In this document: positions 1,058 to 59,483 of the stretch, one piece after another | Position numbering within the stretch: the stretch's first letter is position 1 | How the letters are laid out: each line of letters begins with the position of its first letter | Assembly: GCA_951406725.2 (NCBI GenBank) | Contig: OX597832.1 | Span: 60,202,001 to 60,266,000, forward strand | Direction: 5' to 3' | Length of the DNA: 64,000 nucleotides | Origin: Octopus vulgaris | Taxonomy: Eukaryota | The notes under the pieces: model-generated | Databases searched by the model: none | What the model saw: only the letters and a program-made list of their open reading frames with translations | Told to the model about the DNA's origin: nothing | Translations under genes and position numbers: made by a program

Positions 1058-1147
<90 letters not shown>

Positions 1148-1161
1148 CAGACAGAAGGACA

Positions 1162-1194
<33 letters not shown>

Positions 1195-1224
1195 ACAGAC
1201 AGCCAGACAGACAGACAGACAGAC

Positions 1225-1297
<73 letters not shown>
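1034..1297. repeat. Compound microsatellite (TCTA)n-(TA)n-(GATA/GACA/GGCA)n; target array of the adjacent Tx1-like element
   Basis: Direct reading. Confidence 0.95.
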
Positions 1298-2823
1298 TGT
1301 TTCTTTATTAGCCACACAGGGCTGCACACAGATAGAACAAATTACAAGGTAGAGCTTTTCTTTTGGGGGTAAAAAAAAGGGGGGGGCGATCAAAAGGTAT
1401 CGTAAAAGGAAATTGATCAATAGGGATCGTTATCACAGAAATGTCAATATGAAGTGTAAAGGGGAGGACAGGTGAGGTTTACCCGTGGAAAGAAAAGCCT
1501 ACGGAAAAGACCACGGTAACCTCGGTCAATAAAGTCACATGTTATATTTCTTTTTTTTTTTTTTTTTTGCAAATAAGCAACTCTCTGTATTAATTTTTAC
1601 GGTTCATAGAATCATAGTCAAGGTGGCTTCGTCATTCATACGTGCCATTCTTGCTACATTCACCCATCTTTTTTTAAAACATTCACTAGACAAAACCTGC
1701 CTCTCTACTCTCACTTTCCTCTTCAAGTGATACTTGAAGAAGTTGATGAGAGATTGACCAGAGAGGAAAGTGTTTGTCTCTAATCCTTTCAGGCGCGTCC
1801 ACCAGATACATTCTTTCGCCATAGCCACAAGTATGATAAAAATAGCTCTTCCTTCCCGTTTGAAGGAAGGAGGCGTGACGATATTAACGATAGACTCGGC
1901 TGATAAACCGACACGTCCCACACGTGACAGCAGTCGTTCGAGACAAGCCCACAGGTCGGAGATTGTTGGACACTGCACGATTGCGTGCAGAACGGTTTCG
2001 TCGCTCTGCCCGCATCTCGGGCAGGTCGGCCCCGTGTTTCTCGAGCCATGCCTATAGAGCTTATCCCGAACGGGTAGCGCTTCTCGGTAGCACCGCCAGG
2101 CCAGGGATCTCTGGAAGTTGTCCATAGGTCCCGGCCCGAAAGTCGTCTCAGACAGGCGGGTCAGGTATTCCTCGTCGACGCCCAGGTTTGCCCCAAGTTC
2201 GTCGTCGTACCTCCCCTCCACTAATCCCCTATAGAATGCTTTGGTCGCGTTGAAGTCACTCAAGGTCGACCCAGGACGGCAGAGTTGCTTGAGAACAACG
2301 CGACACTCGCGGTGCCATTCGCCCTTCCTCGGCCTCTTTTTGATCCACGACTGCAGTTCGGTCAGGGAGACGAGCTGCGGGAACGCGTGCCTCACAAACG
2401 GCAACCACACCTGTTCACCGTCGTCTACATAGAGCCGGAGATGTCGCAGTCTTAGCGTGTGTCTGCGCATCATCAACCATAGCATACCCAGCCCTCCTTT
2501 TAACGGGTGTTGACAGCAAATGGATCGCCTGACCATCGGGACGCATCCTTTCCACAAGAAGCGGAAGAGAATGCGTTCTAGTTTGGTGATGGAAGGGTCA
2601 GGACAAGGTACGACGGTCAGGCGGTAGTAGATGATGGACGCGATGTACGTGTTCGCCACCTCCGCCCGACCTTTTAGGGACAGTTTCCTCTCGGCCCATT
2701 GCTGGGTGAGAGTGACCACCCTACTCGTTATCTCGTTCCAGTTCTTCTCCATTTGGAGGTCCGGACCTAACCAGACCCCGAGCAACTCAACCGGGCCGTC
2801 CGTCCAGCGTCCCACGACTGAGG

Positions 2824-2824
<1 letters not shown>
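1298..2824 (-). mobile_element. 5'-truncated Tx1-like (L1 clade) non-LTR retrotransposon inserted in (TATC)n
   Basis: ORF2 C-terminal part plus ~300-bp 3'UTR ending ...GTGGCTAATAAAGAAACA|TATCTATC; flanked on both sides by (GATA)n; homologous 3' ends at 58608 and 59238. Confidence 0.88.
1604..2824 (-). CDS. Tx1-like ORF2 C-terminal fragment (RT thumb region + zf-RVT CCHC), stop-free for ~405 codons
   Basis: Motifs LLGVWLG, W[16 protein letters not shown], [29 protein letters not shown]-x(7)-VLHAIVQC typical of L1/Tx1 ORF2. Confidence 0.85.
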
Positions 2825-2906
<82 letters not shown>

Positions 2907-2927
2907 GTTGGTAGGTAGGTAGGTAGG

Positions 2928-3012
<85 letters not shown>
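2825..3012. repeat. (GATA)n/(GGTA)n microsatellite
   Basis: Direct reading. Confidence 0.95.
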
Positions 3013-4785: not shown

Positions 4786-4824
4786 AGTCTGTTGACTATT
4801 TTTTTCTTTCTCACTAGTACTTCT

Positions 4825-5128
4825 CACTAGTACTTATTCTGTCAGTGATTTTGCCAAACCGCTAAGTTACGGGATGTAAAGACACCAGCATCGGTTGCCA
4901 AGTGATGGTGGAGGGGACAAACACAGACACACAAAAATATACGCACACATACGTATACATATATATACACACACGTCGGGCTTCTTTCAGTGTCCGTCTA
5001 CCAAATCTACTTACAAGGCTTTGGTCAGCCCGAGGCTATAGGAGAAAACACTTGACCAAGGTACCACGCTGTGGGACCGAACCCGGAACCATGTGTTTGG
5101 TAAGCAAGCTACTTACCCCACTGCTCCG
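4825..5128 (-). mobile_element. SINE family B (CORE-like tRNA-derived SINE)
   Basis: RC head with B box GGGTTCGGTCCC, GTACCTTGGTCAAGTG core-like segment, internal (TA/TG) tract and family tail. Confidence 0.85.
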
Positions 5129-5433: not shown

Positions 5434-6870
5434 GTGAAGCTGATGGTAGCGATAGCAATTGTGGTAGCAGTGGTGGTAGCAGTGGGGGGGGCGACGGCAG
5501 CAGTGGTGGTGACAGCAGCAGTGCTGGCGACGGCAGCAGTGGTGGCGACGTCAGCAGTGGTGGCGACGGCAGCAGTGGTGGCGACATCAGCAGTGGTGGC
5601 GACGGCAGCAGTGGTGGCGAAGTCAGCAGTGGTGGCGACGGCAGCAGTGGTGGCGACGGCAACAGTGGTGGCGGCGGCAGCAGTGGTTGCGATGGCAGCA
5701 GTGGTGGCGACGGTAGCAGTAATGGCGGCGGCAGCAGTGGTGGCGACGGCAGCAGTGGTGTCGACGGCAGCAGTGGTGGCGACGTCAGCAGTGGTGGCGA
5801 CGGCAGCAGTGGTGGCGACGTCAGCAGTGGTGGCGACGTCAGCAGTGGTGGCGACGGCAGCAGTGGTGGCGACGGCAGCAGTGGTGGCGAAGTCAGCAGT
5901 GGTGGCAACGGCAGCAGTGGTGACGACGGCAATAGTGGTGGCGGCGGCAGCAGTGGTGGCGACGGCAGCAGTGGTGGCGACGGCAGCAGTGGTGGCGACG
6001 TCAGCAGTGGTGTCGACGGCAGCAGTGGTGGTGACGTCAGCAGTGGTGTCGACGGCAGCAGTGGTGGCGACGTCAGCAGTGGTGGCGACATCAGCAGTGG
6101 TGGCGACGGCAGCAGTGGTGGCGACGGCAGCAGTGGTGGCGAAGTCAGCAGTGGTGGCAACGGCAGCAGTGGTGGCGACGGCAATAGTGGTGGCGGCGGC
6201 AGCAGTGGTGGCGACGGCAGCAGTGGTGGCGACGGCAGCAGTAATGGCGGCGGCAGCAGTGGTGGCGACGGCAGCAGTGGTGGCGACGGCAGCAGTGGTG
6301 GCGACGTCAGCAGTGGTGGCGACGGCAGCAGTGGTGGCGACGTCAGCAGTGGTGGCGACGGCAGGAGTGGTGGCGACAGCAGTAGTAGTGGCGACAGCAG
6401 CAGTGGTGGCGACAGCAGCAGTGGTGGCGACGGCAGCAGTGGTGGCGACGGCAGCAGTGGTGGCGACAGCAGTAGTAGTGGCGACAGCAGTAGTAGTGGC
6501 GAGAGCAGTAGTAGTGGCGAGAGCAGTAGTAGTGGCGACTGCAGCAGTGGTGGCGACGGCAGCAGTGGTGGCGACGGCAGCAGTGGTGGCGACGGCAGCA
6601 GTGGTGGCGACAGCAGTAGTAGTGGCGACAGCAGTAGTAGTGGCGAGAGCAGTAGTAGTGGCGAGAGCAGTAGTAGTGGCGACAGCAGCAGTGGTGGCGA
6701 CGGCAGCAGTGGTGGCGACGGCAGCAGTGGTGGCGACGGCAGCAGTGGTGGCGACGGCAGTAGTAGTGGCGACAGCAGTAGTAGTGGCGAGAGCAGTAGT
6801 AGTGGCGAGAGCAGTAGTAGTGGCGACAGCAGCAGTGGTGGCAACATCAGCAGTGGTGGCGACAGCAGTT
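5434..6870. repeat. GC-rich 18-bp minisatellite, unit GCAGCAGTGGTGGCGACG (~75 copies with variants)
   Basis: Direct reading; translates as VVATAA, PSPPLL or GSSGGD repeats depending on frame. Confidence 0.92.
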
Positions 6871-8741: not shown

Positions 8742-9070
8742 TCAGTGATTGTAGGATCTCTAAGAATGATAAAATAAAAGGTACTGAAACCTATCTGAAA
8801 ATGATACCAGGCTTACAATCCCTACAGGAAGTGCAAAAAATCGTGTTAACTGGAACGACTCATGTACTGAGAAGAGCATTATCGCAGTGAAAGCAACATC
8901 CATTCATGAATTTATTTATTTATTAATTTTTTAAATACATATTTTACCTGTGAATTTGCGTGTGTAAACTGGGAATTCATACAATGAGCTTCTCTGCCCT
9001 ACGGGTACGGAAAACACCCTGCGAGAAACGAAAGAAAATTTGAAGAAAGAAGAAAAAAACAATAAAAATA
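8742..9070 (+). mobile_element. 3' end of R4/Dong-like RLE non-LTR retrotransposon inserted in (TAA)n
   Basis: Encodes ...GTETYLKMIPGLQSLQEVQKIVLTGTTHVLRRALSQ*, homologous to 13380-13525; follows (AAT)n directly. Confidence 0.75.
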
Positions 9071-13000: not shown

Positions 13001-13029
13001 GGACAGTATTTATATTGAAAAATATGTAA

Positions 13030-13560
13030 GCACTACAAAATTAAGACATGACAGAGTTGGCCAATATCTACACTGGCTAATAAGTCGGCATTACAATATC
13101 AAAACTGCCGACAAGTGGTATAATCACCACCCTGAAGCTGTAACTGAAGGAGAAAATGTAACGATTCTGTGGGACTTTCCAGTACATACAGACCGAACCA
13201 TCAAAGCCAATAAACTGGATATTGTTGTGAAAGACAAAAACAATAAAGTGTGCTTATTGATCGACATGAGCATCCCCTGTGATCATAATATCTCGGCGAA
13301 AGAGTTTGACAAGCTCAGAAAATATAAAGACCTGCTCATTGAAATTGAGAAAATGTGGCATCTCAAGGCGGTTACAATATCAGTGATCGTAGGAGCACTA
13401 GGAATGATCAAGAAGGGAACCGAAAACTATATGAGAATGATCCCTGGCTTACCATCCCTGCAAGAAGTGTAAAAGATTGACTTAACTGGTCCATCACACG
13501 TATTGAGAAGAGCATTATCGATGTGAGAACTATTACTACCCATGTGTTTTAATTTAACTT
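13030..13560 (+). pseudogene. R4/Dong-like non-LTR retrotransposon C-terminal restriction-like endonuclease fragment
   Basis: RHDRVGQYLHW...ILWDFPVHTDRTIKANKLDIVVKD...LLIDMSIP...KLRKYKDL...VIVGALG; premature stop at 13470. Confidence 0.85.
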
Positions 13561-13618
13561 TAGAAAAAAAGGAGAAGTATGGTGGGATGGAAAACTGAAC
13601 TGACATCATTCAAAAAGC

Positions 13619-13860
13619 TTGGGTACCCTGGGTATCAAAAGAGGAACTTCACAGAGTGATAGCCTATCCCCGTTGCTTTTTGTTCTCTGCGTCATACCCC
13701 TGCCTTTGGTACTTAAGAAAATGAACCTGGGGTACCAACTAAAGGAACAATCTCAAACAACCAGCCACTTCCTCTTCGTGGGTGATTTGAAACTGTATGG
13801 CAACGATGAGTCACAAGTGAGTTCTTTGGTGGACACGGTTCACTGTTTTAATACTGATAT
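13619..13860 (+). pseudogene. R4/Dong-like reverse transcriptase fragment (domains 4-5), degenerate
   Basis: IKRGTSQSDSLSPLLFVL (QGDxLSPLLF) and HFLFVGDLKLY (YMDD-equivalent mutated). Confidence 0.8.
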
Positions 13861-14321
13861 CTAATTCTTCATTGCCCACAAGGGGCTAAACATAGAGTGG
13901 ACAAACAAGGACAGACGAAGGTGCTAAGTCGATTACATCGACACCTGTGCGTAACTGGTACTTATTTAATCGACCTCGAAAGGATGAAAGGCGAAGTCGA
14001 CCTCGGCGGAATTTGAACTCAGAACATAACAGCAGATAAAATACCTATTTCGGAATTTTAACTCAGAACGTAGCGGCAGACGAAATTCCTATTTCTTTAT
14101 TACCCACAAGGGGCTAAACATAGAGGGAACAAACAAGAACAGACATAGGTATTAAGTCGATTACATCGACCACAGTGCGTAACTGGTACTTAATTTATCG
14201 ACCCCGAAAGGATGAAAGGCAAAGTCGACCTCGGCGGAATTTGAACTCACAACGTAACGGCAGACGAAATACGGCTATGCATTTCGCCCGGCGTGCTAAC
14301 GTTTCTGCCAGCTCGCCACCT
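13861..14321 (-). mobile_element. Tandem array of SINE family A units with Tx1-like 3' tail
   Basis: Head at 14321; tail-to-head junctions AAGAAATA|GG(T/A)ATTT at 14045/46 and 14089/90. Confidence 0.85.
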
Positions 14322-14339
14322 TCTTTAATAATAATGGGA

Positions 14340-14584
14340 GAAGAAGAAGAAGAAGAAGAAGAAGAAGAAGAAGAAGAAGAAGAAGAAGAAGAAGAAGAAG
14401 AAGAAGAAGAAGAAGAAGAAGAAGAAGAAGAAGAAGAAGAAGAAGAAGAAGAAGAAGAAGAGAAGAAGAAGAAGAAGAAGAAGAAGAAGAAGAAGAAGAA
14501 GAAGAAGAAGAAGAAGAAGAAGAAGAAGAAGAAGAAGAAGAAGAAGAAGAAGAAGAAGAAGAAGAAGAAGAAGAAGAAGAAGAA
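14340..14584. repeat. (GAA)n ~80 units with one phase slip near 14460
   Basis: Direct reading. Confidence 0.95.
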
Positions 14585-14875
14585 ATGAAATAAAAATATA
14601 TAAACTGCTGAATTAATTAAACCACCTGGGATTTCAATGTTGTTTTTTTCTTTCCTTGTATTGTTTGTTTTGTTTTTGTCGCTCTTCTTTGTTTGCTTTT
14701 CGTTTCCAGCGCTATTTTTGTCCCAAACCAAAAAAGATCAATGCTGGTAGGTTGACTACTCTCCATCGATAAATCATTCCTATGGCAATAGCTACTTGGC
14801 AAGAATGAATTCATCAAACCGCTTCTCTTAATTCCCCAATTGCCTTTGGTTCGGTTAGGACGCCACTCATATACA

Positions 14876-14909
<34 letters not shown>

Positions 14910-14977
14910 CATACATACATACGTGTATATATATATATATATACATATAAATATGCGTGTTCGTGTGTGTGTGTATG

Positions 14978-15030
<53 letters not shown>

Positions 15031-15033
15031 ACG

Positions 15034-15068
<35 letters not shown>

Positions 15069-15284
15069 ATGTGTGCGTGTGTGTGTGTATAATATGTATG
15101 TATGTACACCTTAGAATTTCATTTCTCCCTCTCTATCTATCTATCTATTTATCTATGTCAATGAAAAATGAGTTTCTTTCAAAACGTATCTAAGTTTTGG
15201 GTTTTTTTTTCTTCCTGTTACCTGCTGTTGTTTATTCTTGTTGTTCTCATTGTTGACGTAGTAAAGAGAGGAGAAAAGGAAAAA

Positions 15285-15428
15285 TGAAAGAAAGAAAGAA
15301 AGAAAGACAGACAGAAAGAAAGAAAAAAAAGAAAGAAATGAAGAAAGACAGAAAGAAAGGAAGAAAGAGAAAAAGAAAGAAAGAAAAAAGAAAGAAAGAA
15401 AGAAAGAAAGAAAGAAAAAAAGAAAGAT

Positions 15429-15467
<39 letters not shown>

Positions 15468-15495
15468 AAAAAGAAAGAAAGAAAGAAAGAAAATA
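15285..15495. repeat. Degenerate (GAAA)n tract
   Basis: Direct reading. Confidence 0.9.
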
Positions 15496-15792
15496 AGTAA
15501 GAAAATCGCTGATATTGCAAGTAGCAGGAGGGCTGAATAAAAATTCGTTACGTGTAGCATAAGCAGTATTAGTAAACCCGTGCATCATGCTTATTGCAGA
15601 CACACCACGGAAATCAATTGACTGCGGCATTGGTACTGAGATGATGTCTCTTATAGATGAACAGTGGTGAATAACTCGAAGATATATCAGTGGTAGACGA
15701 AAATTATTGTTTTCCTTTATCAGCGACCATGGATTTCGTCTTACCATGCGGTTGTCAGGGGATACATGCTACTGTATATGTTTATACATATG

Positions 15793-15849
<57 letters not shown>

Positions 15850-15884
15850 ATATATATATATATATATGTATGTATACATATATG

Positions 15885-15916
<32 letters not shown>

Positions 15917-15958
15917 CATGTATATATAAATATGTATCTATGTGTGTGTGTGTATATA

Positions 15959-16052
<94 letters not shown>

Positions 16053-16132
16053 AATATGCATGTGTGTGTATAGATAGAGAAATAGATTAGATATAGGTAT
16101 ACAAGCATAAATATAGATATATATGTGTATGC

Positions 16133-16186
<54 letters not shown>

Positions 16187-16397
16187 CATGATTGATCGCT
16201 AGCCACTAAACCGTGTTTTATTTTATGTTTGTTTCTGTTGAATTATTTCTGTTTATTTCTGTGTTTATTTCTGTTGAAGAGCGTAGGCTCGAAACGTGAA
16301 AGACTTTCTCACTTCCCGAGCGTCAAACTAATACATCTTTTGTTGTTTACACACCCGTTTTCGTCTTTTGTTCCGTTTGTTTTTTTTTGTAAATTCC

Positions 16398-16400
<3 letters not shown>
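16187..16400 (+). mobile_element. ~200-bp (TA)n-inserted PLE-like element with minimal hammerhead-like motif, CUGUNGA variant
   Basis: TTT-CTGTTGA-A-GAGC-GTAG-GCTC-GAAAC-GTG-AAAG at 16268-16302; homologues at 34545, 45711, 47068, 62805. Confidence 0.7.
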
Positions 16401-16453
<53 letters not shown>

Positions 16454-16524
16454 CATATATGCATATATACATACGTATATGTACATATTAACATCTATAC
16501 GTATGTGTATATATGCATATGTGG

Positions 16525-17150
16525 ACACAGGACGTCATGAAACGTGTACAACAAAAAAGTACGAAGCACGAGTACATAGAACATGGACTATTTTTTCGAA
16601 CAAGGAAAGACATATGGAAAACAAAACAAGCAACGAAAAGAACGACCTTCATCAGTTGTTAGCTGCTTGTCTAGTCTCGTATTTCGAGCATTTAACAACA
16701 ATATACGCTTTCGATAAAACAGTTGCTCCCACAAAGCAAATTAAATAAAATTTGGGATTTTGTAGAGGATCAAAATAGGTAACACAAACAGGTCAGTGAA
16801 AACAAACAGGAAGGGCTGCTAAGCCTAAACGAGGTTGTGGTGGCGAACGCGTAAATCAAGCTGGGACAGGAGACAAACAAGGACACGTCTTTTGTTCCAT
16901 CTACAACGGAGAGAAAGAAAGATGGCCGATAGTCACGTGGGAGCCACGTTAGCACGGAAGGAGGAGGGAGGGAGAGAGAGTGACAGAGTAATGGGATAGA
17001 ATAGCGGGAGAAGAGGAGGTAAAAGAATAAGTGAGAGAAAAACGATAGAGTAAAAAGATCGTATAAAGTGCGCATCAGAATTATTACGATAAAAATTACA
17101 TGGCAGAGGATGCATGGCGTTCAATCATATAATAATATAAATAATATAGG
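16525..17150 (-). mobile_element. Non-coding interspersed repeat in (TA)n with CTGATGAAGG motif (related end at 40605-40775)
   Basis: Shared ACAGGAC...CCTTCATCAG...TTTCGA organisation with 40609-40772. Confidence 0.55.
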
Positions 17151-17184
17151 TATATATACATACATATATATATATATATATATA

Positions 17185-17400
17185 CATATTTCGTTTGTGA
17201 ATTTGGTTTGTAAGATTCTTTATATGAGTTCATGTGTTGAAGCATATTTTTTTGTGTCTGAGGAGAGTCATTTTCTTTTCGTGCCTTATAATATAACACA
17301 CTCACCGGTAAAATTTCCACTTTTTTTCTTATTTTTATTTTCCTAAAATTTTCGTTGCGTCTTGCAGCCTTTTCAATAGGTTTGACTGAGTCAAAACTAT
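17185..17400 (+). mobile_element. Interspersed repeat ending in a fold-back palindrome (second copy 37340-37576)
   Basis: High similarity to 37345-37560; ends TTTGACTGAGTCAAA. Confidence 0.7.
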
Positions 17401-17864
17401 TACTTGATAAACGAAAAATACGTTGTAAATACACGACAGATATAAAACGTATATGTATATTGAGGGCACAATCGAACGGAAGACAGCCACAAAGGGTCCC
17501 TAATTCTTCATCAGTTATCAACCAAAATGGTAATAATCAATTTCGTATATGTATTATATATATATTCATTCTTAGGGACAGAACTGCAATCTTTAATTGT
17601 ACTGTTTTATTTTTTATTGTTTTAAAGGCCGGATGACTTTCCTGTTATCAACAATTCCCTTTTCACTGGTACTACCACTGGTTGTCTACTTTCACAACCG
17701 ATTCCATTCCTCTTTGATTCAGTAGCACGTCCAAGATGTCAGCTAGGAGAGAAAGCTGCAACAGTACTTTGCTGGTTTTCATTTTTCTTCTGAATAGACT
17801 AGAGAAACGTGAAGGAAAGTGCCTTGCTCAAGGACACATCCAGTCAACCAGTGCATATATTTTT

Positions 17865-18182
17865 TAAGGCACCCTTTGGTCACGACTGACAAATGGGATT
17901 GCACCAAGAATGTTCCCCTCCGAGGCACAAATCCGAGCAAGATTATTTTATAGAAGACCAACCGTCGCCCATGCATACCAGCCTCACCTCTCCATGCCAC
18001 TGATGTTACCTTAGGGAAACGCAAAGGTGGCGATAAAGCTTGGCAACTGTGACGTCGCAACTCATTTCTACAGTTGAGTGAACTGGAGCAACGTGAAATA
18101 AAGGGTCTTGCTTAAGAACACAACACAGCCCTGTAAGAGAATTGAACTCACAACCTCATGATTATTAGCTCGATGCTCTAAT
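17865..18182 (-). mobile_element. tRNA-derived SINE related to family C with a different tail
   Basis: RC TTAGAGCATCGAGC...GAGTTCAATTC...GTGTTCTTAAGCAAGACCCTTTATTTCACGTTGCTCCAGTTCACTCA. Confidence 0.75.
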
Positions 18183-18456
18183 CTTTCGTGTACATATGTG
18201 TGTGTGCACGCGCGGCTGTGTGTGTGTGTGCGCGCGCGCGCGTCTGTGTGTGTGAGAGAGAGAGAGAGAGGGTGCGTGTATGTATATGTATGCGTGTAAA
18301 AAGAAAAAAGGATCACCTTATAAGCGTTGTTGTTAACATGTATTTTCGGAAATATAAATTACATTGATATTTTTTTTATATCTAAATGTGTTAATACGAC
18401 AGAAACAATTGTTGGCTTTGTAAGGTGAATTTTCTCTATACATATTTTTGCTATAT

Positions 18457-18572
<116 letters not shown>

Positions 18573-19681
18573 AGAGTGTATACAGAATCAGACTAGCACT
18601 CGTACACAACCGCATGTGAGTGAAGAAGGATTGTTTATAGCCATTAATCATTCCATACGTATCATGTTCATGTCACTTATGATATTACAACATTTCGATT
18701 ATCCTCTGTAGCACCACCATCACCACCACCAACGCCGTCAGCACTACCGTCACCACCAACACTACCAGTATCACCACTACCACCGTCGCCATCACAAGCA
18801 TCGTCGCCACCATCTTTGTGTGCAATTTATCCATTATTGACATTAAAAAAAAGTGATTATAGTTCGATCTAAGGGGATCTGAACTAAATGTTTCAAGTTA
18901 ACTGAAAGCTAAGAAGAAGAAAAAAGACAGCGCCGAAAAATAATTTTTAAAAAAAAATTCAATGCTTTTTATTTTCTGTTTACATGAATTAAATAGAGGA
19001 AGGTTGGAGCAGACGACACCTTTTCGGGACAAACAGCGATTAAGCGGTGGCACAAAGGAAGGAAGGAAGGAAGGAAGGAAGGAAGGAAGGAAGGAAGGAA
19101 GGAAGGAAGGAAGGAAGGAAGGAAGGAAAGAAAGAAGGAAGGGATAGGTGAACCAACGAACGGCCAAACAAACGAATGAAATAGGAAGGAAGAAACCAAC
19201 CAACCAACGTAGGCAGGTAGGAAAGAACGAACGAACCAAGGAAAGAAGGAGGGAACGACCAAACGAACGAACGAAAGTAGGAAAGGAGGGAAGGAAGGGA
19301 GGGAGGAACGAATGTATGAAGGAACGAAGAAACGAACAAAAGAAAGAACGAATGAATTTATTCTGAGATCGGGTCTCTGGCTTAAAGGGTTACAACAGAG
19401 TAGACATGCAGCCAAGGTGTGGGGTTCAACCGGTTGATGGTTTTACTGTTCTTAACCAAGAAATAAGGAACGTGCTTATGAATGGTAATCATTTCGTGCA
19501 GAAAGAACCGCCATTGGTCTCTGCACTTCAAGTTCTGAGTTTCATTCCCGACGAGGTCCATTGTGTCTTTTATTCTTCCGGAGTCGATAAAATGAAATAC
19601 CTGAAAAATGTGGAGGTCGTTTGTTTCGACCAACCACCTCCTCTGAAAATTACTCGATTTGTCATTAAATAAGAAACTCTT

Positions 19682-20080
19682 ATGGTGGCGAGCTGGCAGA
19701 ATCGATAGCACGCCGGGCGAAATGTTCAGCGGTATTTCGTCTGTCGTTACGTTGTGAGTTCAAATTCCGCCGAGGTCGACTTTGCCTTTCATCCTTTCGG
19801 GGTCGATTAAATAATTAGCATTTACGCACTGGGGTAGATGTAATCGACATAATTCGTTTGTCTGTCCTTGTTTGTCCCCTCTGTGTTTAGCCCCTTGTGG
19901 GTAATAAAGAAATAGGTATTTCGTCTGTCTTTATGTTCTGAGTTCAAATTCCATCGAGGTTGACTTTGCCTTTCATCCTTTTGGGGTCGATAAAGTAAGT
20001 ACCAGTCAAACACTGGAGTCGAGTGTAATTGACTTAATCTCTTCCTCCAAATTTGAGGCCTTGTGCTTCCAGTAGATAGG
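19682..20080 (+). mobile_element. Composite SINE family A: Tx1-tailed unit nested in an ordinary (TTA)n-tailed copy
   Basis: A box TGGCAGAATCGATAG, B box GAGTTCAAATTCC, Meta-like domain, tail ...AATAAAGAAATA|GGTATTTCGTCTG at 19914/15, second B box and Meta domain, then (TTA)n. Confidence 0.88.
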
Positions 20081-20101
20081 ATTATTATGATTATTATTAT
20101 G

Positions 20102-20173
<72 letters not shown>

Positions 20174-20389
20174 GAGTGAGAGAGCAGTGCACGCCATCAA
20201 AATAACACTGGGGTAAAATATACGAAGCCCAGTATACCCATCATGACTGCCCGTTTGATAAGGGTACACTAGGAACATGCATCACAACCATATGTGCATG
20301 ACATGGTTATCTCATATCAAGATAAACAGTGCATGACCTTGCAGGTGGGGCCCAGTTAGAATTTTCTTCAGGTTGAGTAGCCCATCCCG

Positions 20390-28348: not shown

Positions 28349-28874
28349 TTTGTGTGCATATGTATATATATATTTATGCGAGTACGTCTGTGTTCGTGTC
28401 TGTCCCCCACCAAAGCTTGACAACCTGTGTTGGCTTGTTTACGTCCCCGTCACTTAGCAATTCTGCAAAAAGAATAGAGCAATGTGCTGGAGCCGATTTG
28501 TTCGACTAAATCTTGGAAGGCGGTGCCCCAGCATGGCCGCGGCACATTGACTGAAGCGGCTAAAAGGAAAAAAAGGATTTTAAGTTAACACATGACCGAT
28601 GCAGTTCATCCTCATGAATGAAAGCTTCGAAATAGGGCCCATCAAGAAACCCCACAGATCAAGGGTCCAAACGGCACAAACCTTCGCCCAATCGTCCTCC
28701 GATATGCAGACACATGTTTAGGGTAGTTTCATTCGTTCTAACACCTTTTTTTCCACAGTCATCCACCACCTTTTTGATCAATTCACTGGGGAGGGGACAC
28801 TTTCCTTTCCATGGCCGTCACTCATCCTCTTCTGCCTTAGTTACTGGACAGACCAACACCGCTTTTAATGATAA

Positions 28875-29092
28875 TAATCCTTTCTCCTGGAAGCACAAGG
28901 CCTCAACTTTGGGGAAAGCAATAAAGTCGATTACATCAACCCCACTGCGTAACTGGTACTCTTTTAATCGACCATGAAAGGATAAAAGGCAAAGTCAACC
29001 TCGGCGGAATTTGAACTCAGAAGGTGGTGACGGGTGAAATATCGCTCAGCATTTCGTCCGGCGTGCTAACGATTCTGCCAGCTAGCCGCCTT
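28875..29092 (-). mobile_element. SINE family A
   Basis: Full head, B box, Meta-like domain and ordinary tail in reverse complement. Confidence 0.85.
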
Positions 29093-29094
29093 AC

Positions 29095-29188
<94 letters not shown>

Positions 29189-29193
29189 ATAAA

Positions 29194-29266
<73 letters not shown>

Positions 29267-29267
29267 G

Positions 29268-30210
29268 TCCTTTTTCTATTATAGGCACACAGCCTGAAAT
29301 TTGGAGAGGGGGGGGTCAGTCGATTACATCCCACCCACGACGCAATTGGTACTTAATTTATCGACCCCGAAAGGATGAAAGGCAAGCTCGACCTCGGTGG
29401 AATTTAAACTCAGAACATAAAGACATACAAAATACCTATTTCTTTACTGCCCACAAGAGGCTAAACATAGAGTGGACAAACAAGGACAGACAAACCGATT
29501 AAGTAGATTATATCGACCCCAGTGCGTAACTGGTACCTTATTTATCGACCCCGAAAGGATGAAAGGCAAAGTCAACCTCGGCGGAATTTGAACTCAGAAC
29601 GTAACGGCAGAAAAATACCGCTAAGCATTTCGCCCGACGTGCTAACGTTTCTTATTTCTTTATTGCCCACAAGGAGATAAACACAGAAGGGACAAACAAG
29701 GACAGAAAAACGGATTAAGTCGATTAAATCGACCCCAGTGCGTAACTGGTCCTTAATTTATCAACCCCGAAAGGATGAAAGGCAAAGTCGACCCCGGCGG
29801 AATTTGAACTCAGAACGTAGCCGCAGACGAAATACTGCTAAGCATTTCTACCAGCTCCCCGCCTTAACAACGGCAGTAATCTTTTCTGCTCAAGGCACAA
29901 GTCCCGAAATTTGTTGGGTGGAGGCCAGTCGATTAGATCGACCCCACTACGCAACTGGTACTTAATTTATCGACCAACGAAAGGATGAAAGGTAAAGTCG
30001 ACCTCGGCGGAATTTGAACTCAGAACATAAAGACAGACGAAATATCGCTCAGCATTTCGCACGGCGCACTAACGATTCTGCCAGCTCGACACCTTGACCG
30101 AATGTAATATTCTTTTTTATTCTTGGCACAAGGCCCGAAATGTGGAGGGTTGTTGGCCAGTCGATTAGATCGACCCTATTACGCAACGATTCTGCCAGCT
30201 CAACGCCTAA
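29268..30210 (-). mobile_element. Cluster/tandem array of about 5 SINE family A units, two with Tx1-like tails
   Basis: Repeated B boxes and Meta-like domains; junctions at 29436/37 and ~29652/53. Confidence 0.85.
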
Positions 30211-48724: not shown

Positions 48725-48726
<2 letters not shown>

Positions 48727-48945
48727 GCTTCAAATTTTGTCACAAGGACAGCAATTTTGGGCGAGAGTATCAACCCCCAATATTTTACTGGTACTTATTT
48801 TATCGACTTCGAAAGAATAAAAGGCAAAGTCGACCACGGCAGAATTTGAACTCAGAACGTAGCGACGGCCGAAATACTGTTAAGCATTTCGTCCAATGCA
48901 CTAACGATTCTGCCGGCTCACCGCCTTAATAATAATAATAATAAT

Positions 48946-48979
<34 letters not shown>

Positions 48980-49153
48980 ATAATTCTTTCTACTATCGGC
49001 GCAAGGCCTGAAATTTGGAAGGAGGGGAACAGTCGGTTGTTTCACTGGTGCTTAATATATCAACTCTGAAAGGATGAACAGCAAAGTCGACCTCGGCGTA
49101 ATTTGAACTCAGAAAGCATTTCGCCCAGTGTCCTAACGATTCTGCCAGTTCGC
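48725..49153 (-). mobile_element. Two SINE family A copies (48725-48927, 48985-49153) separated by (AAT/AAC)n
   Basis: Heads, B boxes and Meta-like domains in reverse complement. Confidence 0.8.
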
Positions 49154-49570
49154 ATAATAAAGCTGAATTGAAGACCATATGTGTAGTGTGTGGTTCCATA
49201 GAGAACAATAATAGCGTGTAAATAATGAGTTAAGAACCCCCTTTGGACAGAAAAAGTCAAAGACTGCCAGGGAGATTCGAAACCAGATTTCTTGTAGTCA
49301 TGACAGACTTTCTACGACTGGACAAAAACAATTCTTTCTCTGACGTCAACAACATGCATGCTAGTATTGTTTCTACCTGTTGACTCTGGAGAAAGGACAA
49401 TGCCCTTCACCTTCAAAGGACCCCTACACCGGTGAGATTGAGCGCACTAATGTGCCTTAAGCAAGTCTACATCTACATGAGACCAGGTGAGCAGCAATGA
49501 TGGTGGTGGTATTCTAGAAGGTCGGCAGTCTATGAAGGACGAAAAACCTCATTCATTTACATGTGTGTGT

Positions 49571-52339: not shown

Positions 52340-52793
<454 letters not shown>

Positions 52794-56199: not shown

Positions 56200-56400
56200 T
56201 TCTCTTACTTCATTCAGTCATTTGACAGTGGCCATGCTGGAGCACCGCCTTTAGTCGAACAACTCGACACCAGGACTAATACTTTGTAATCCTAGTATTT
56301 ATTCTATCGGTCGCTCTTGCCGAACCGCTAGGTTACGGAGACGTAAACACACCAACATTGTTTGTCGAGCGATTGTGGGGTACAAACACATACAAACACA
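56200..56400 (-). mobile_element. SINE family B 3' half
   Basis: TTCAGTCATTTGACAGTGGCCATGCTGGAGCACCGCC...GCCGAACCGCTA. Confidence 0.8.
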
Positions 56401-56644
56401 CAAATACATACATATATATGTAACTTACATAACTTAGATTGGTTTCGGCCATTATCAGCCAAGGCCATGAGTAACACAATAGCACTATTTAGTGAAATTT
56501 AAGTTTATATTAGCCTCCGGTAATTTAATATCATAAATTGCTGTGGTGATATATTAATGAGTATGTAGTATTATTAACTTACGAATGGGGAAATAATGTA
56601 TTTTACTCATAAAAATATTAGTTAAATTAATTTCAATCGTACGT

Positions 56645-56760
56645 TATTTACATTATTTATATTTGACGGGTATTTGTCTTCATCTTGTTTGTTGCTAACA
56701 CAACGTTTAGGCTGATATACCCTCCAGCCTTCATCAGGTATCTTGGGGAAATTTCGAACG
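56645..56760 (-). mobile_element. Penelope-like terminal fragment with minimal hammerhead (G12 mutated)
   Basis: RC GATAC-CTGATGA-A-GGCTG-GAGGGTATAT-CAGCC-TAAAC-GTT-GTGTT. Confidence 0.65.
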
Positions 56761-56869
56761 ACAAAATGAAACAATTGATTATTTTGTCTCCATTTGCAGT
56801 CTTCTTGCGCCTACACAGTATCTCAACAGACATGATAAAGCAGCACAATATATTCACTAGGTGATTTTA

Positions 56870-57097
56870 CAAAAATAGTCCCAGTTGTTATAGGTGCCTT
56901 GGGTACCGCCAATAACAGAATTAACAGCTCCTTTATTGATATTACTGTAACTACGAGAGATGCACTGATTCAGAAATCTGCTTTATTGGAGATAGCAAGG
57001 ATTGTAAGAAAGGTCCTCGATATCTAAGGAAACTGGTTGTGATCCGATATCAAGGACATTGAATCCGGATGTAAAACTTTCGTGCACCCCATGAATA
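56870..57097 (+). mobile_element. 3' end of R4/Dong-like element followed by (TAA)n
   Basis: KIVPVVIGALGT...IQKSALLEIARIVRKVLDI*. Confidence 0.7.
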
Positions 57098-58336: not shown

Positions 58337-58607
58337 TTCCATTTATCTGTCTATCTACCCCCTCTTTACTTGTCTATATCTCTATCCATTTCGTGTCAAT
58401 GTGTCTATCAACTTTATTTATCTCAGTCAGTCTTTTTATCTACCCGTTTATATATGTCTGCCTACCTATCTATTCATCTATCTTCTATCTGTCAATCTGC
58501 CAGTCTATTTGCCTATATATCTATTTTCATCTCTATCCTGCTATTTATCTCTATCCATCCATCCATCCATCTACCTACCTACCTACCTACCTACCTATCT
58601 ATCTATC

Positions 58608-59027
58608 TGAATGACGAAGCCACCTTGAGCATGATCCTATGAACCCAGAAATTGAAAACAGAGAGTTGCTTATTTGCAAAAAAAAAAAAAAAGAAATATA
58701 ACATGTGACTCCATTGACCGAGGTTACCGTGGTCTTTTCCGTAGGCTTTTCTTTCCACGGGTAAACCTCACCTGTCCTCCCCTTTACACTTCATATTGAC
58801 ATTTCTGTGATAACGATCCCTATTGACCAATTTTTTTTTCTTTCCTCTCCCCCTTTTTTTAACCCCCCTTTTTTTAACCCCCTTTTTTTGTCCTCTTTCT
58901 CTCCTTTTACGATCCCTTTTGATCGAAACTCCCCTTCCTTTTTTTTTTTTTTAAACCTTCAAAAGAAAAGCTCTACCTTGTAATTTGTTCTATCTGTGTG
59001 CAGCCCTGAGTGGCTAATAAAGAAACA
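58608..59027 (+). mobile_element. Tx1-like element 3' end (copy 2) inserted in (TATC)n
   Basis: Encodes NDEATLSMIL*; 3'UTR nearly identical to 1298-1603 RC; ends AATAAAGAAACA|TATCTATC. Confidence 0.9.
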
Positions 59028-59120
<93 letters not shown>

Positions 59121-59237
59121 GTCTGTCTGTCTATCTGTAATATATCTATCTATCTAACTATCTACCTGTCTATCTATCTATCTATCTATTTATCCATCTA
59201 TCTATCCGTCTATCTACCTATCTATTTGTAATCTATC

Positions 59238-59362
59238 TTTTTTTTCCCACGATCCGTTTTGATCGAAATGCTACCCACCTCTTTTTTTCCTCCCAAAAAG
59301 AAACGCTCTGCTTTGTATTTTGTTCCCTCTGTGTTCAGCCCCGTGTGGCCAATAAAGAAACA
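59238..59362 (+). mobile_element. Tx1-like element 3'UTR fragment (copy 3, diverged) inserted in (TATC)n
   Basis: ...CTGTGTTCAGCCCCGTGTGGCCAATAAAGAAACA|TATCTATC. Confidence 0.85.
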
Positions 59363-59426
<64 letters not shown>

Positions 59427-59447
59427 CATCTATCTATCTATCTATCC

Positions 59448-59483
<36 letters not shown>

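What the first reader, a model, noticed from the sequence alone, without database searches (positions are those of the whole stretch)
13861..14321. SINE variant that carries the Tx1 LINE 3' tail
Seen: family A SINEs have two alternative tails. The variant tail TTTGTCCCCTCTGTGTTTAGCCCCTTGTGGGTAATAAAGAAATA (19871-19914; also RC at 13861, 14090, 29437, 29653) aligns with the Tx1 3' terminus TTTGTTCCCTCTGTGTTCAGCCCCGTGTGGCCAATAAAGAAACA (copy 3) and TTTGTTCTATCTGTGTGCAGCCCTGTGTGGCTAATAAAGAAACA (copy 1). Known: SINEs borrow 3' tails from the partner LINE that mobilises them, usually L2/CR1/RTE; Tx1 partners are rarely reported. Inference: a tail swap recruited a sequence-specific Tx1 machinery.
Basis: partly seen in the sequence, partly recalled or inferred. 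Interest (0 to 1): 0.8.

Follow-up and report, generated by a model that had tools for sequence, protein, structure and literature searches.

The report
Octopus SINE shares L1/Tx1 retrotransposon tail
A very abundant short jumping element (SINE), likely from an octopus, ends in the same 42 bases as a long L1/Tx1-type retrotransposon that sits in TATC repeats, a pairing rarely reported; the SINE itself is not found in TATC repeats, so it is likely copied by a sister retrotransposon with a different target.

Summary
Five SINE units carry 'tail B'. Its last 42 nt match the 3' termini of three LINE copies without gaps (29-37 of 42). Against LINE copy 3, 0 of 500 shuffles reached the score for any of the 5 units. 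The LINE is L1/Tx1-group (zf-RVT; relatives APE+RT+zf-RVT); Tx1 proper was not tested by phylogeny.

The 'sequence-specific machinery' inference is not supported for this LINE family. 3 of 3 LINE ends abut perfect (TATC)n and 0 of 5 tail-B ends do; 4 of 5 run straight into another same-strand SINE. Tail B still behaves as a true end: its right-hand partners and junctions differ, and one public run has 1746 contigs going on into unlike DNA.

New here: 19 SINE tails (5 B, 14 others) share a covarying 4-bp stem with a CTTGT loop. Two of the three fixed B-versus-LINE differences are those that give this hairpin.

Best reading (0.45): a tail captured from a sister L1/Tx1 family with another or relaxed target. 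The direction of transfer and the real partner are open. New variant of a known kind; interest 0.5.

The parts
14090..14325 (-). Full tail-B SINE unit B1: Pol III-type head (A-box-like 14300-14310, B-box-like 14236-14248), body, conserved core, tail B
14090..14133 (-). Tail B of B1; 37 of 42 identical to LINE copy 3 end; hairpin GCCC-CTTGT-GGGT
14046..14089 (-). 44-nt tandem duplication of the tail/body junction
   Evidence: (period 44, 2.0 copies)
13862..14045 (-). Headless tail-B unit B2 beginning at the body (GGTATT); its tail (13862-13905) abuts non-SINE DNA
13590..13861 (+). Decayed reverse-transcriptase-like fragment of another LINE flanking B2 (R4/Dong-like by recall only; no Pfam hit)
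19682..19914 (+). Full tail-B unit B3 (tail 19871-19914)
19915..20080 (+). Headless right-hand unit with an A-type tail (stem AGGC/GCTT), followed by (ATT)n 20081-20173
29653..29865 (-). Unit B4 with a head lacking 20 nt; its tail joins the next unit inside the A box; reads as a 5'-truncated insertion into a SINE head (inferred)
29437..29652 (-). Unit B5 (tail 29437-29480)
29272..29436 (-). Headless right-hand unit with a different A-type tail (stem AGGC/GCCT), followed by (ATT)n
1298..2821 (-). LINE copy 1: 5'-truncated L1/Tx1-group element; open ORF2 C-terminal 405 aa (1604-2821, zf-RVT) and 3' UTR; TATC arrays on both sides
58608..59027 (+). LINE copy 2: end of ORF2 and 3' UTR, 88% to copy 1; in TATC array
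59240..59362 (+). LINE copy 3: about 120 nt of 3' UTR, 79% to copy 1, closest to tail B; TATC array downstream. No ORF, so assigned by UTR homology only

Best explanation
A young, high-copy subfamily of a Pol III-type SINE, likely an octopus CORE-SINE, shares its last 42 nt with a (TATC)n-resident L1/Tx1-group LINE; it likely took this end from a sister L1/Tx1 family by a template switch and is likely copied by that family's ORF2 protein, not by the TATC-specific family seen here. SHOWN: the homology; that the LINE is L1-group and sits in TATC arrays; that tail-B ends are not at TATC arrays; that tail B ends at ...AATAAAGAAA(TA) and is joined to different partners; that the SINE tails share a covarying 4-bp stem with a CTTGT loop. 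INFERRED: the SINE is transcribed from its A/B boxes; the partner's reverse transcriptase binds the 3' hairpin region and primes at a nick. Its preferred sites would include other SINE copies (inside the A box, at the head/body border, at the head start), helped by short matches such as AGAAA, which would give the same-strand chains seen. The partner itself was not found: no genome was available.
For: Homology is end-to-end and significant. Tail B carries AATAAA (3 of 5 copies), a Pol II polyadenylation signal expected in a LINE 3' UTR, which fits LINE-to-SINE transfer. The tail-B majority is closer to LINE copy 3 (37 of 42) than to copy 1 (32 of 42), and LINE copies 1 and 3 match at 37 of 42, so the tail falls within the spread of LINE subfamilies. 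Tail B is a real end. The three GGTATT junctions have three different right-hand partners: two A-type units only 81% alike and one B unit. Adjacent units are no more alike than distant ones (B1-B2 0.874, B4-B5 0.885; range over all B pairs 0.84-0.91), so this is neither one master dimer nor local duplication. Run X8 has 1746 contigs going on into unlike DNA behind 19914, and joints from 19908-19914 back to three head positions (7-36 contigs each). B units are younger than the others (B-B 0.89, A-A 0.78), as expected after a successful tail swap. O. vulgaris has 80 L1-Tx1 families, 13 recently active (PMC13282606), so sister families exist in at least one octopus.
Against: No LINE ending like tail B outside a TATC array was found; only three LINE ends were at hand. 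Three columns are fixed between 5 of 5 B tails and 3 of 3 LINE ends, and two of them are exactly what turns the LINE end into the SINE-family hairpin. The LINE ends pair fully only as a 6-nt loop and have a C.C mismatch in the 5-nt-loop register, which suggests recognition by the partner of the A tails. Folding of the 60-nt ends alone gave no shared structure (z from -2.2 to +1.2). In 3 of 5 places tail B lies inside a block whose outer end is an A tail with (ATT)n. Runs X3 and X10 show no loose end at 19914 among the six rows shown for each (2052 rows not shown), and the raw-read run X24 laid only 17 reads. No clear target-site duplication was found around B1, B3 or B5.
Confidence: 0.45

Rival explanations
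1. Passenger tail: a piece of L1/Tx1 3' UTR was joined to the SINE once, then tuned to the family hairpin, and tail-B SINEs are copied by the same unknown LINE (possibly CR1/L2-type) as the A-tailed ones.
For: Tail B has the family's CTTGT loop and 4-bp stem at the same distance from the end; 70 of 76 cells pair, slid controls 23-38; covariation 0.729, 0 of 500 shuffles. Two of three fixed differences from the LINE create this hairpin. B units join the same SINE chains as A units. Bivalve CORE-SINEs have CR1 and L2 partners with compensated stem-loops (PMC4824008).
Against: It needs an unrelated LINE's end to be already nearly the family hairpin at the right place. None of the 5 B tails is followed by (ATT)n, unlike most A tails.
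Confidence: 0.22
2. Reverse transfer: the TATC-resident LINE acquired its last 42-55 nt from a tail-B SINE or from that SINE's true partner LINE.
For: The hairpin is native to the whole SINE family (19 tails) and looks decayed in the LINE.
Against: The LINE copies share sequence upstream of the 42 nt with no break (copies 1 and 3: 37 of 42, then 20 of 25). The part of tail B upstream of the hairpin is absent from A tails but shared with the LINE. AATAAA fits a Pol II 3' UTR.
Confidence: 0.13
3. Composite SINEs: tail B is mostly an internal segment of B-A dimers that move as a unit by the A tail.
For: 3 of 5 junctions are at the same nucleotide; B3 and B5 sit left of an A unit with (ATT)n. The direct junction could not be counted in the public runs.
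Against: The right-hand units are of different subfamilies and only 81% alike, below the 89% among B units. B2 ends in non-SINE DNA. Run X8 shows many free ends.
Confidence: 0.1
4. One reading: tail B recruited the TATC-specific Tx1 machinery itself.
For: Best sequence match in the window. SINEU-1 and SINEU-2 follow their Tx1 partner's target only weakly (23% and 13%, PMC4494074), so a few misses are possible.
Against: 0 of 5 at TATC against 3 of 3 for the LINE; no TATC consensus behind 1746 free ends in X8.
Confidence: 0.07
5. Chance or convergence of two pyrimidine-rich ends with AATAAA.
For: Only 42 nt, partly low in complexity; 4 of 15 pairs were reached by 1-28 of 500 shuffles.
Against: 37 of 42 without gaps, at both termini; 0 of 500 for all five pairs with copy 3; next best place in 64 kb is 25 of 42.
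Confidence: 0.03

Closest known systems
Octopus OR1/OR2 CORE-SINEs (Ohshima and Okada 1994; paper not seen, cited as CORE-SINEs in PMC4824008, PMC4758252, PMC5804259)
   Same: Likely octopus host; Pol III-type head; conserved core; very high copy number. The family here is probably one of them (inferred).
   Different: Their sequences could not be retrieved, so identity is untested. No partner LINE is named for them in the passages read.
SINEU / Tx1-Mar of crocodilians (PMC4494074)
   Same: SINEs thought to be moved by Tx1 LINEs; tandem insertion; preference for another repeat as target.
   Different: SINEU has snRNA heads and poly(A) and shares the target with its Tx1, but no shared 3' sequence was found. 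Here the 3' sequence is shared and the target is not.
ZmSINE2/3 with LINE1-1_ZM, and SINEX-3_CR with L1-1_CR (PMC3472496, PMC3747384)
   Same: The only three L1-clade shared-tail pairs among 58; about 50 nt shared, with a compensated hairpin in the maize case.
   Different: Plants and a green alga, not Tx1, no microsatellite target. Here the hairpin register differs between SINE and LINE.
Kibi, Koshi and crocodilian microsatellite-targeting Tx1 (PMC4494074)
   Same: L1/Tx1-type LINE embedded in a microsatellite on both sides.
   Different: Targets there are (TC)n, (TTC)n, (TTCC)n and (TTTC)n; here (TATC)n. No shared-tail SINE is described for them in the text read.
BivaCORE-SINE1/2 (PMC4824008)
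   Same: Mollusc CORE-SINEs with exchanged, LINE-derived, stem-loop tails.
   Different: Their partners are CR1 and L2.

Membership tests
tRNA-derived SINE | Short, interspersed, at least 100 copies | tested here: met
   Units of about 230 nt; at least 14 loci in the window; 185,681-437,645 contig records laid per run in three runs (records, not copies)
tRNA-derived SINE | Internal Pol III A and B boxes | tested here: met
   A-box-like and B-box-like motifs 50-51 nt apart in 6 units, including B1 and B3; the motifs were written by me from recall and from the window
tRNA-derived SINE | At least 60% identity to a tRNA over 60 nt | tested here: inconclusive
   ARAGORN found 0 genes; no tRNA family among 81 Rfam matches at E<=5 in 13800-20200; no direct tRNA alignment made
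CORE-SINE (OR1/OR2) | Central CORE domain and identity with the published consensus | not testable with these tools
   Reference sequences not retrievable; the resemblance of the core is recalled
L1/Tx1 group LINE | ORF2 with AP endonuclease, RT and C-terminal zinc domain, nearest to L1 ORF2p | tested here: met
   P0001 has zf-RVT (E 2e-8); full-length relatives at 38-41% carry PF03372+PF00078+PF13966; relative P0003 hits L1 ORF2p at 1e-72 and R2 at 6e-29. The window copy lacks the EN and RT parts.
Tx1 clade proper | RT groups with named Tx1 elements in a tree | not tested
   No protein named Tx1 came up; no tree was built
Tx1 clade proper | Target-sequence preference | tested here: met
   3 of 3 ends abut perfect (TATC)n; 5' flanks score 0.96, 0.88 and 0.50; such arrays are 1.4% of the window
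SINE/partner-LINE pair | Shared 3'-terminal sequence | tested here: met
SINE/partner-LINE pair | Same terminal repeat and insertion target | tested here: not met
   0 of 5 against 3 of 3 at TATC; no TATC consensus in X8 loose ends
SINE/partner-LINE pair | Shared 3' stem-loop | tested here: inconclusive
   Same place and similar letters, but a 5-nt loop in the SINE and a 6-nt loop in the LINE; whole-end folds not significant
SINE/partner-LINE pair | Concurrent age and trans-mobilisation | not testable with these tools
   No genome held; needs a census and a reporter assay

The most novel reading that the evidence does not exclude
The whole dominant octopus CORE-SINE family, A tails and tail B alike, rides on microsatellite-targeting L1/Tx1 LINEs that recognise a 3' hairpin stringently. 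Each tail type was captured from, or co-evolved with, a different Tx1 family (an ATT-targeting one for the A tails), and the tail-B partner targets SINE copies themselves. This would be the first animal L1-clade LINE with stringent 3'-end recognition and shared-tail SINEs, and would explain the same-strand SINE chains in microsatellites (4 of 11 heads have an ATT-type 5' flank against 1.2% of random places).
Probability: 0.2. Interest if true: 0.72.

Novelty: new variant of a known kind. Interest (0 to 1): 0.5.

Why it matters
SINEs make up about 11.6% of the O. vulgaris genome (PMC13282606), and no partner LINE is named for the octopus CORE-SINEs in the passages I could read. L1-clade LINEs are the known exception to the shared-tail rule (3 of 58 pairs, none animal; PMC3472496, PMC3747384). 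A young SINE subfamily with an L1/Tx1 tail gives a direct test of whether animal L1/Tx1 proteins read a 3' hairpin, and of whether a SINE inherits its partner's target. The covarying hairpin supplies ready-made mutants. The effect on host biology is modest, and Repbase or Dfam entries that I could not see may already note the likeness.

Tried and rejected
No genome is held for the window, so the genome-wide census was not possible.

Searches for related DNA found nothing usable. Tail or core patterns: viral contigs 0 and 0, metagenome contigs 0, genome contigs 1 hit with unrelated flanks, taken as chance. Related-loci searches with the LINE protein or its alignment found no confirmed relative, so no other LINE 3' UTR was seen.

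A profile of 14 A-type tails found no LINE end in the window. 100 of 181 candidate frames scanned against Pfam gave no transposon domain. tblastn with 5 relatives found only LINE copy 1.

The raw-read run X24 laid 17 reads and was not used as evidence. Rfam matches in 13800-20200 all lie below the gathering scores, mostly over simple repeats.

Rejected readings: local tandem duplication and a single master dimer; chance. A weak 25-nt match of the linker and tail start to another repeat at rc 4911-4935 (E 0.006) is much poorer than the LINE match.

Earlier scan notes: nothing found.

Literature searches that showed no report of an octopus SINE with a Tx1 tail. The library lacks most subscription papers, Repbase Reports, Albertin 2015 and the SINEBase supplement, which may bear on novelty.

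Full report
HOST AND SETTING. The window is microsatellite-rich animal DNA. The LINE protein's named relatives are from Argonauta hians (60% over the whole query) and Octopus bimaculoides (97% over 9% of it), so an octopus is likely; this is inferred. No genome is held.

THE OBSERVATION. Tail B stands at 19871-19914 and, reversed, at 13862, 14090, 29437 and 29653. Three LINE ends lie at rc 1298-1341, 58984-59027 and 59319-59362. Without gaps, the last 42 nt of the five tails match copy 3 at 34-37 positions, copy 1 at 30-34 and copy 2 at 29-33. In all 15 pairs the best local alignment of a whole unit to a LINE 3' region ends at both termini. In 11 of 15 pairs none of 500 shuffles reached the score; four pairs were reached by 1, 12, 27 and 28. 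The next best 42-nt place in the window scores 25. With a gap the likeness may run about 10 nt further upstream.

THE LINE. Copy 1 holds an open 405-aa ORF2 end with zf-RVT. Full-length relatives have AP endonuclease, RT and zf-RVT, and one of them hits human L1 ORF2p at 1e-72 against 6e-29 for R2. It is therefore L1/Tx1-group. No named Tx1 protein was retrieved and no tree was built, so 'Tx1' rests on the target habit: all three ends abut perfect (TATC)n, and two of three 5' flanks are TATC-like, in a window where such arrays are 1.4%. Copy 3, the best match, is only about 120 nt of UTR.

THE SINE. Units have A- and B-box-like motifs 50-51 nt apart, a conserved core and variable tails. ARAGORN and Rfam gave no tRNA hit. 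The family is probably OR1 or OR2, octopus CORE-SINEs named in PMC4824008, PMC4758252 and PMC5804259; their sequences could not be had. B units are 89% alike in body and core, other units 78%, so B is a younger subfamily. In contigs of three public runs with three organism labels, summed depth over tail B is of the order of that over the core (81, 40 and 4 million against 117, 73 and 17 million). This shows abundance and is not a copy number. Which label is the window's species is unknown.

WHERE TAIL B SITS. None of five tails abuts TATC. Three run into a headless SINE unit at the same base (GGTATT), one into a head inside the A box, and one into a fragment of another LINE. SINEs cover about 6% of the window, so four direct same-strand joins are not chance. 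They are not local duplications, since neighbours are no more alike than distant copies. They are not one master dimer either: the right-hand units are two A types only 81% alike and one B. B4 reads as a 5'-truncated insertion into the head of B5, with GAAA shared at the 5' joint (inferred). In run X8, 1746 contigs go on behind 19914 into unlike, AT-rich DNA (agreement 0.39). Joints lead from 19908-19914 back to head positions 19687, 19698 and 19706 (X8 7-36 contigs per joint, X3 0-5, X10 0-2). Only 15 joints and 19 loose-end rows were shown, of about 2600 and 2070. X3 and X10 list no free end at 19914 among their six rows each, the direct tail-to-body join is not counted, and the raw-read run X24 laid only 17 reads. 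So tail B is a true 3' end in many copies of at least one species; the share of solo ends is unknown.

THE HAIRPIN. All 19 SINE tails examined (5 B, 14 others; loci without a recognisable tail were left out) were anchored on a CTTGT-like loop. The 4-bp stem pairs in 70 of 76 cells, against 23-38 when slid, and 0 of 5000 arm shuffles reached that. The pair-count tool gives 91.7% paired, 18 cells changed on both sides and covariation 0.729, with 0 of 500 shuffles reaching these three values. The two measures that count pairs or pair types were not exceptional (322 and 58 of 500). The rows are related and were anchored on the loop, so this is support, not proof. Tail B matches the LINE at 20-26 of the last 30 nt but the A tails at only 9-17 of 29. 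Three columns are fixed between all B tails and all LINE ends; two of them give the CTTGT loop and a C-G pair where the LINE has C.C. Tail B is thus LINE-like in sequence and SINE-like in hairpin. Folds of the 60-nt ends alone were not significant.

MECHANISM. I commit, at 0.45, to capture of the end from a sister L1/Tx1 family that then mobilises the subfamily with another or relaxed target, often other SINEs. For the direction: AATAAA, the closer match to one LINE subfamily than to another, and the LINE UTRs running on upstream without a break. None of these is decisive without an outgroup. Rivals are a passenger tail moved by the A-tail partner (0.22), reverse transfer (0.13), composites moved by the A tail (0.10), the TATC-specific machinery itself (0.07) and chance (0.03).

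WHAT IS KNOWN. PMC3747384 (passages, section 1.4, Table 1 read) and PMC3472496 (passages) count 58 shared-tail pairs; three are L1-clade (maize twice, Chlamydomonas), none Tx1 or mollusc. PMC4494074 (parts 1-4 of 5 read) infers Tx1-Mar mobilisation of crocodilian SINEU from shared targets, and found no LINE sharing the SINEU-1 3' end. PMC4824008 (passages; 2 of 3 supplements searched) gives CR1 and L2 partners for bivalve CORE-SINEs. PMC13282606 (passages; supplement searched) lists 80 L1-Tx1 families and 11.6% SINE in O. vulgaris, with no partner statement in what I saw. PMC5786205 (passages; supplement searched) has no Tx1 or octopus mention. PMC4758252, PMC5804259, PMC8967140 and PMC3531059 were seen as passages. 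Ohshima and Okada 1994 and Gilbert and Labuda 1999 were seen only as references. Ten searches showed no report of this pairing; Repbase, Dfam and the SINEBase tables were not visible.

VERDICT. A real, well-supported shared tail between an abundant SINE subfamily and an L1/Tx1-group LINE: a rare variant of a known kind. The family-wide hairpin is the most useful new lead. Interest 0.5.

Noticed in passing
window 28874-30210 (-) and 48725-49158 (-): Same-strand chains of SINE units (seven units or remnants in the first, two in the second) linked by ATT-, GTT- or ACT-type repeats; 4 of 11 SINE heads have such a repeat as 5' flank against 1.2% of random places, which suggests a microsatellite-preferring partner for the A tails.
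   Followed up: partly
window 1063-3012, 58580-59130, 59240-59480: An L1/Tx1-group family resident in (TATC)n arrays; a search for a TATC/GATA-targeting Tx1 in print found nothing relevant.
   Followed up: partly
window 13002-13530, 13590-13861, 8745-8890, 56760-57090 (+): Decayed pieces of another LINE type (R4/Dong-like by recall; no Pfam hit for the two tested). Two adjoin (AAT)n arrays shared with SINEs on the opposite strand; no CTTGT hairpin at their ends.
   Followed up: partly
window rc 54688 and rc 11470: A second repeat family with canonical A/B boxes 32 nt apart, likely another tRNA-derived SINE.
   Followed up: no
window 4820-5110, 52350-52640, 56200-56410: A third dispersed repeat seen by eye; one copy has a weak 25-nt likeness to the linker before tail B (rc 4911-4935, E 0.006).
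   Followed up: no
window 5490-6868: GC-rich 18-bp minisatellite, 76.6 copies, open for about 500 codons in frames on both strands.
   Followed up: no
window 19909-19922 and the SINE head: The commonest junction forms a short palindrome (GAAATA-GG-TATTTC) and falls in the loop of the head's long hairpin; the three SINE-internal junction sites in consensus-like heads read RGC|RG. A template jump from a cleaved RNA or a nick-site motif are both possible.
   Followed up: partly
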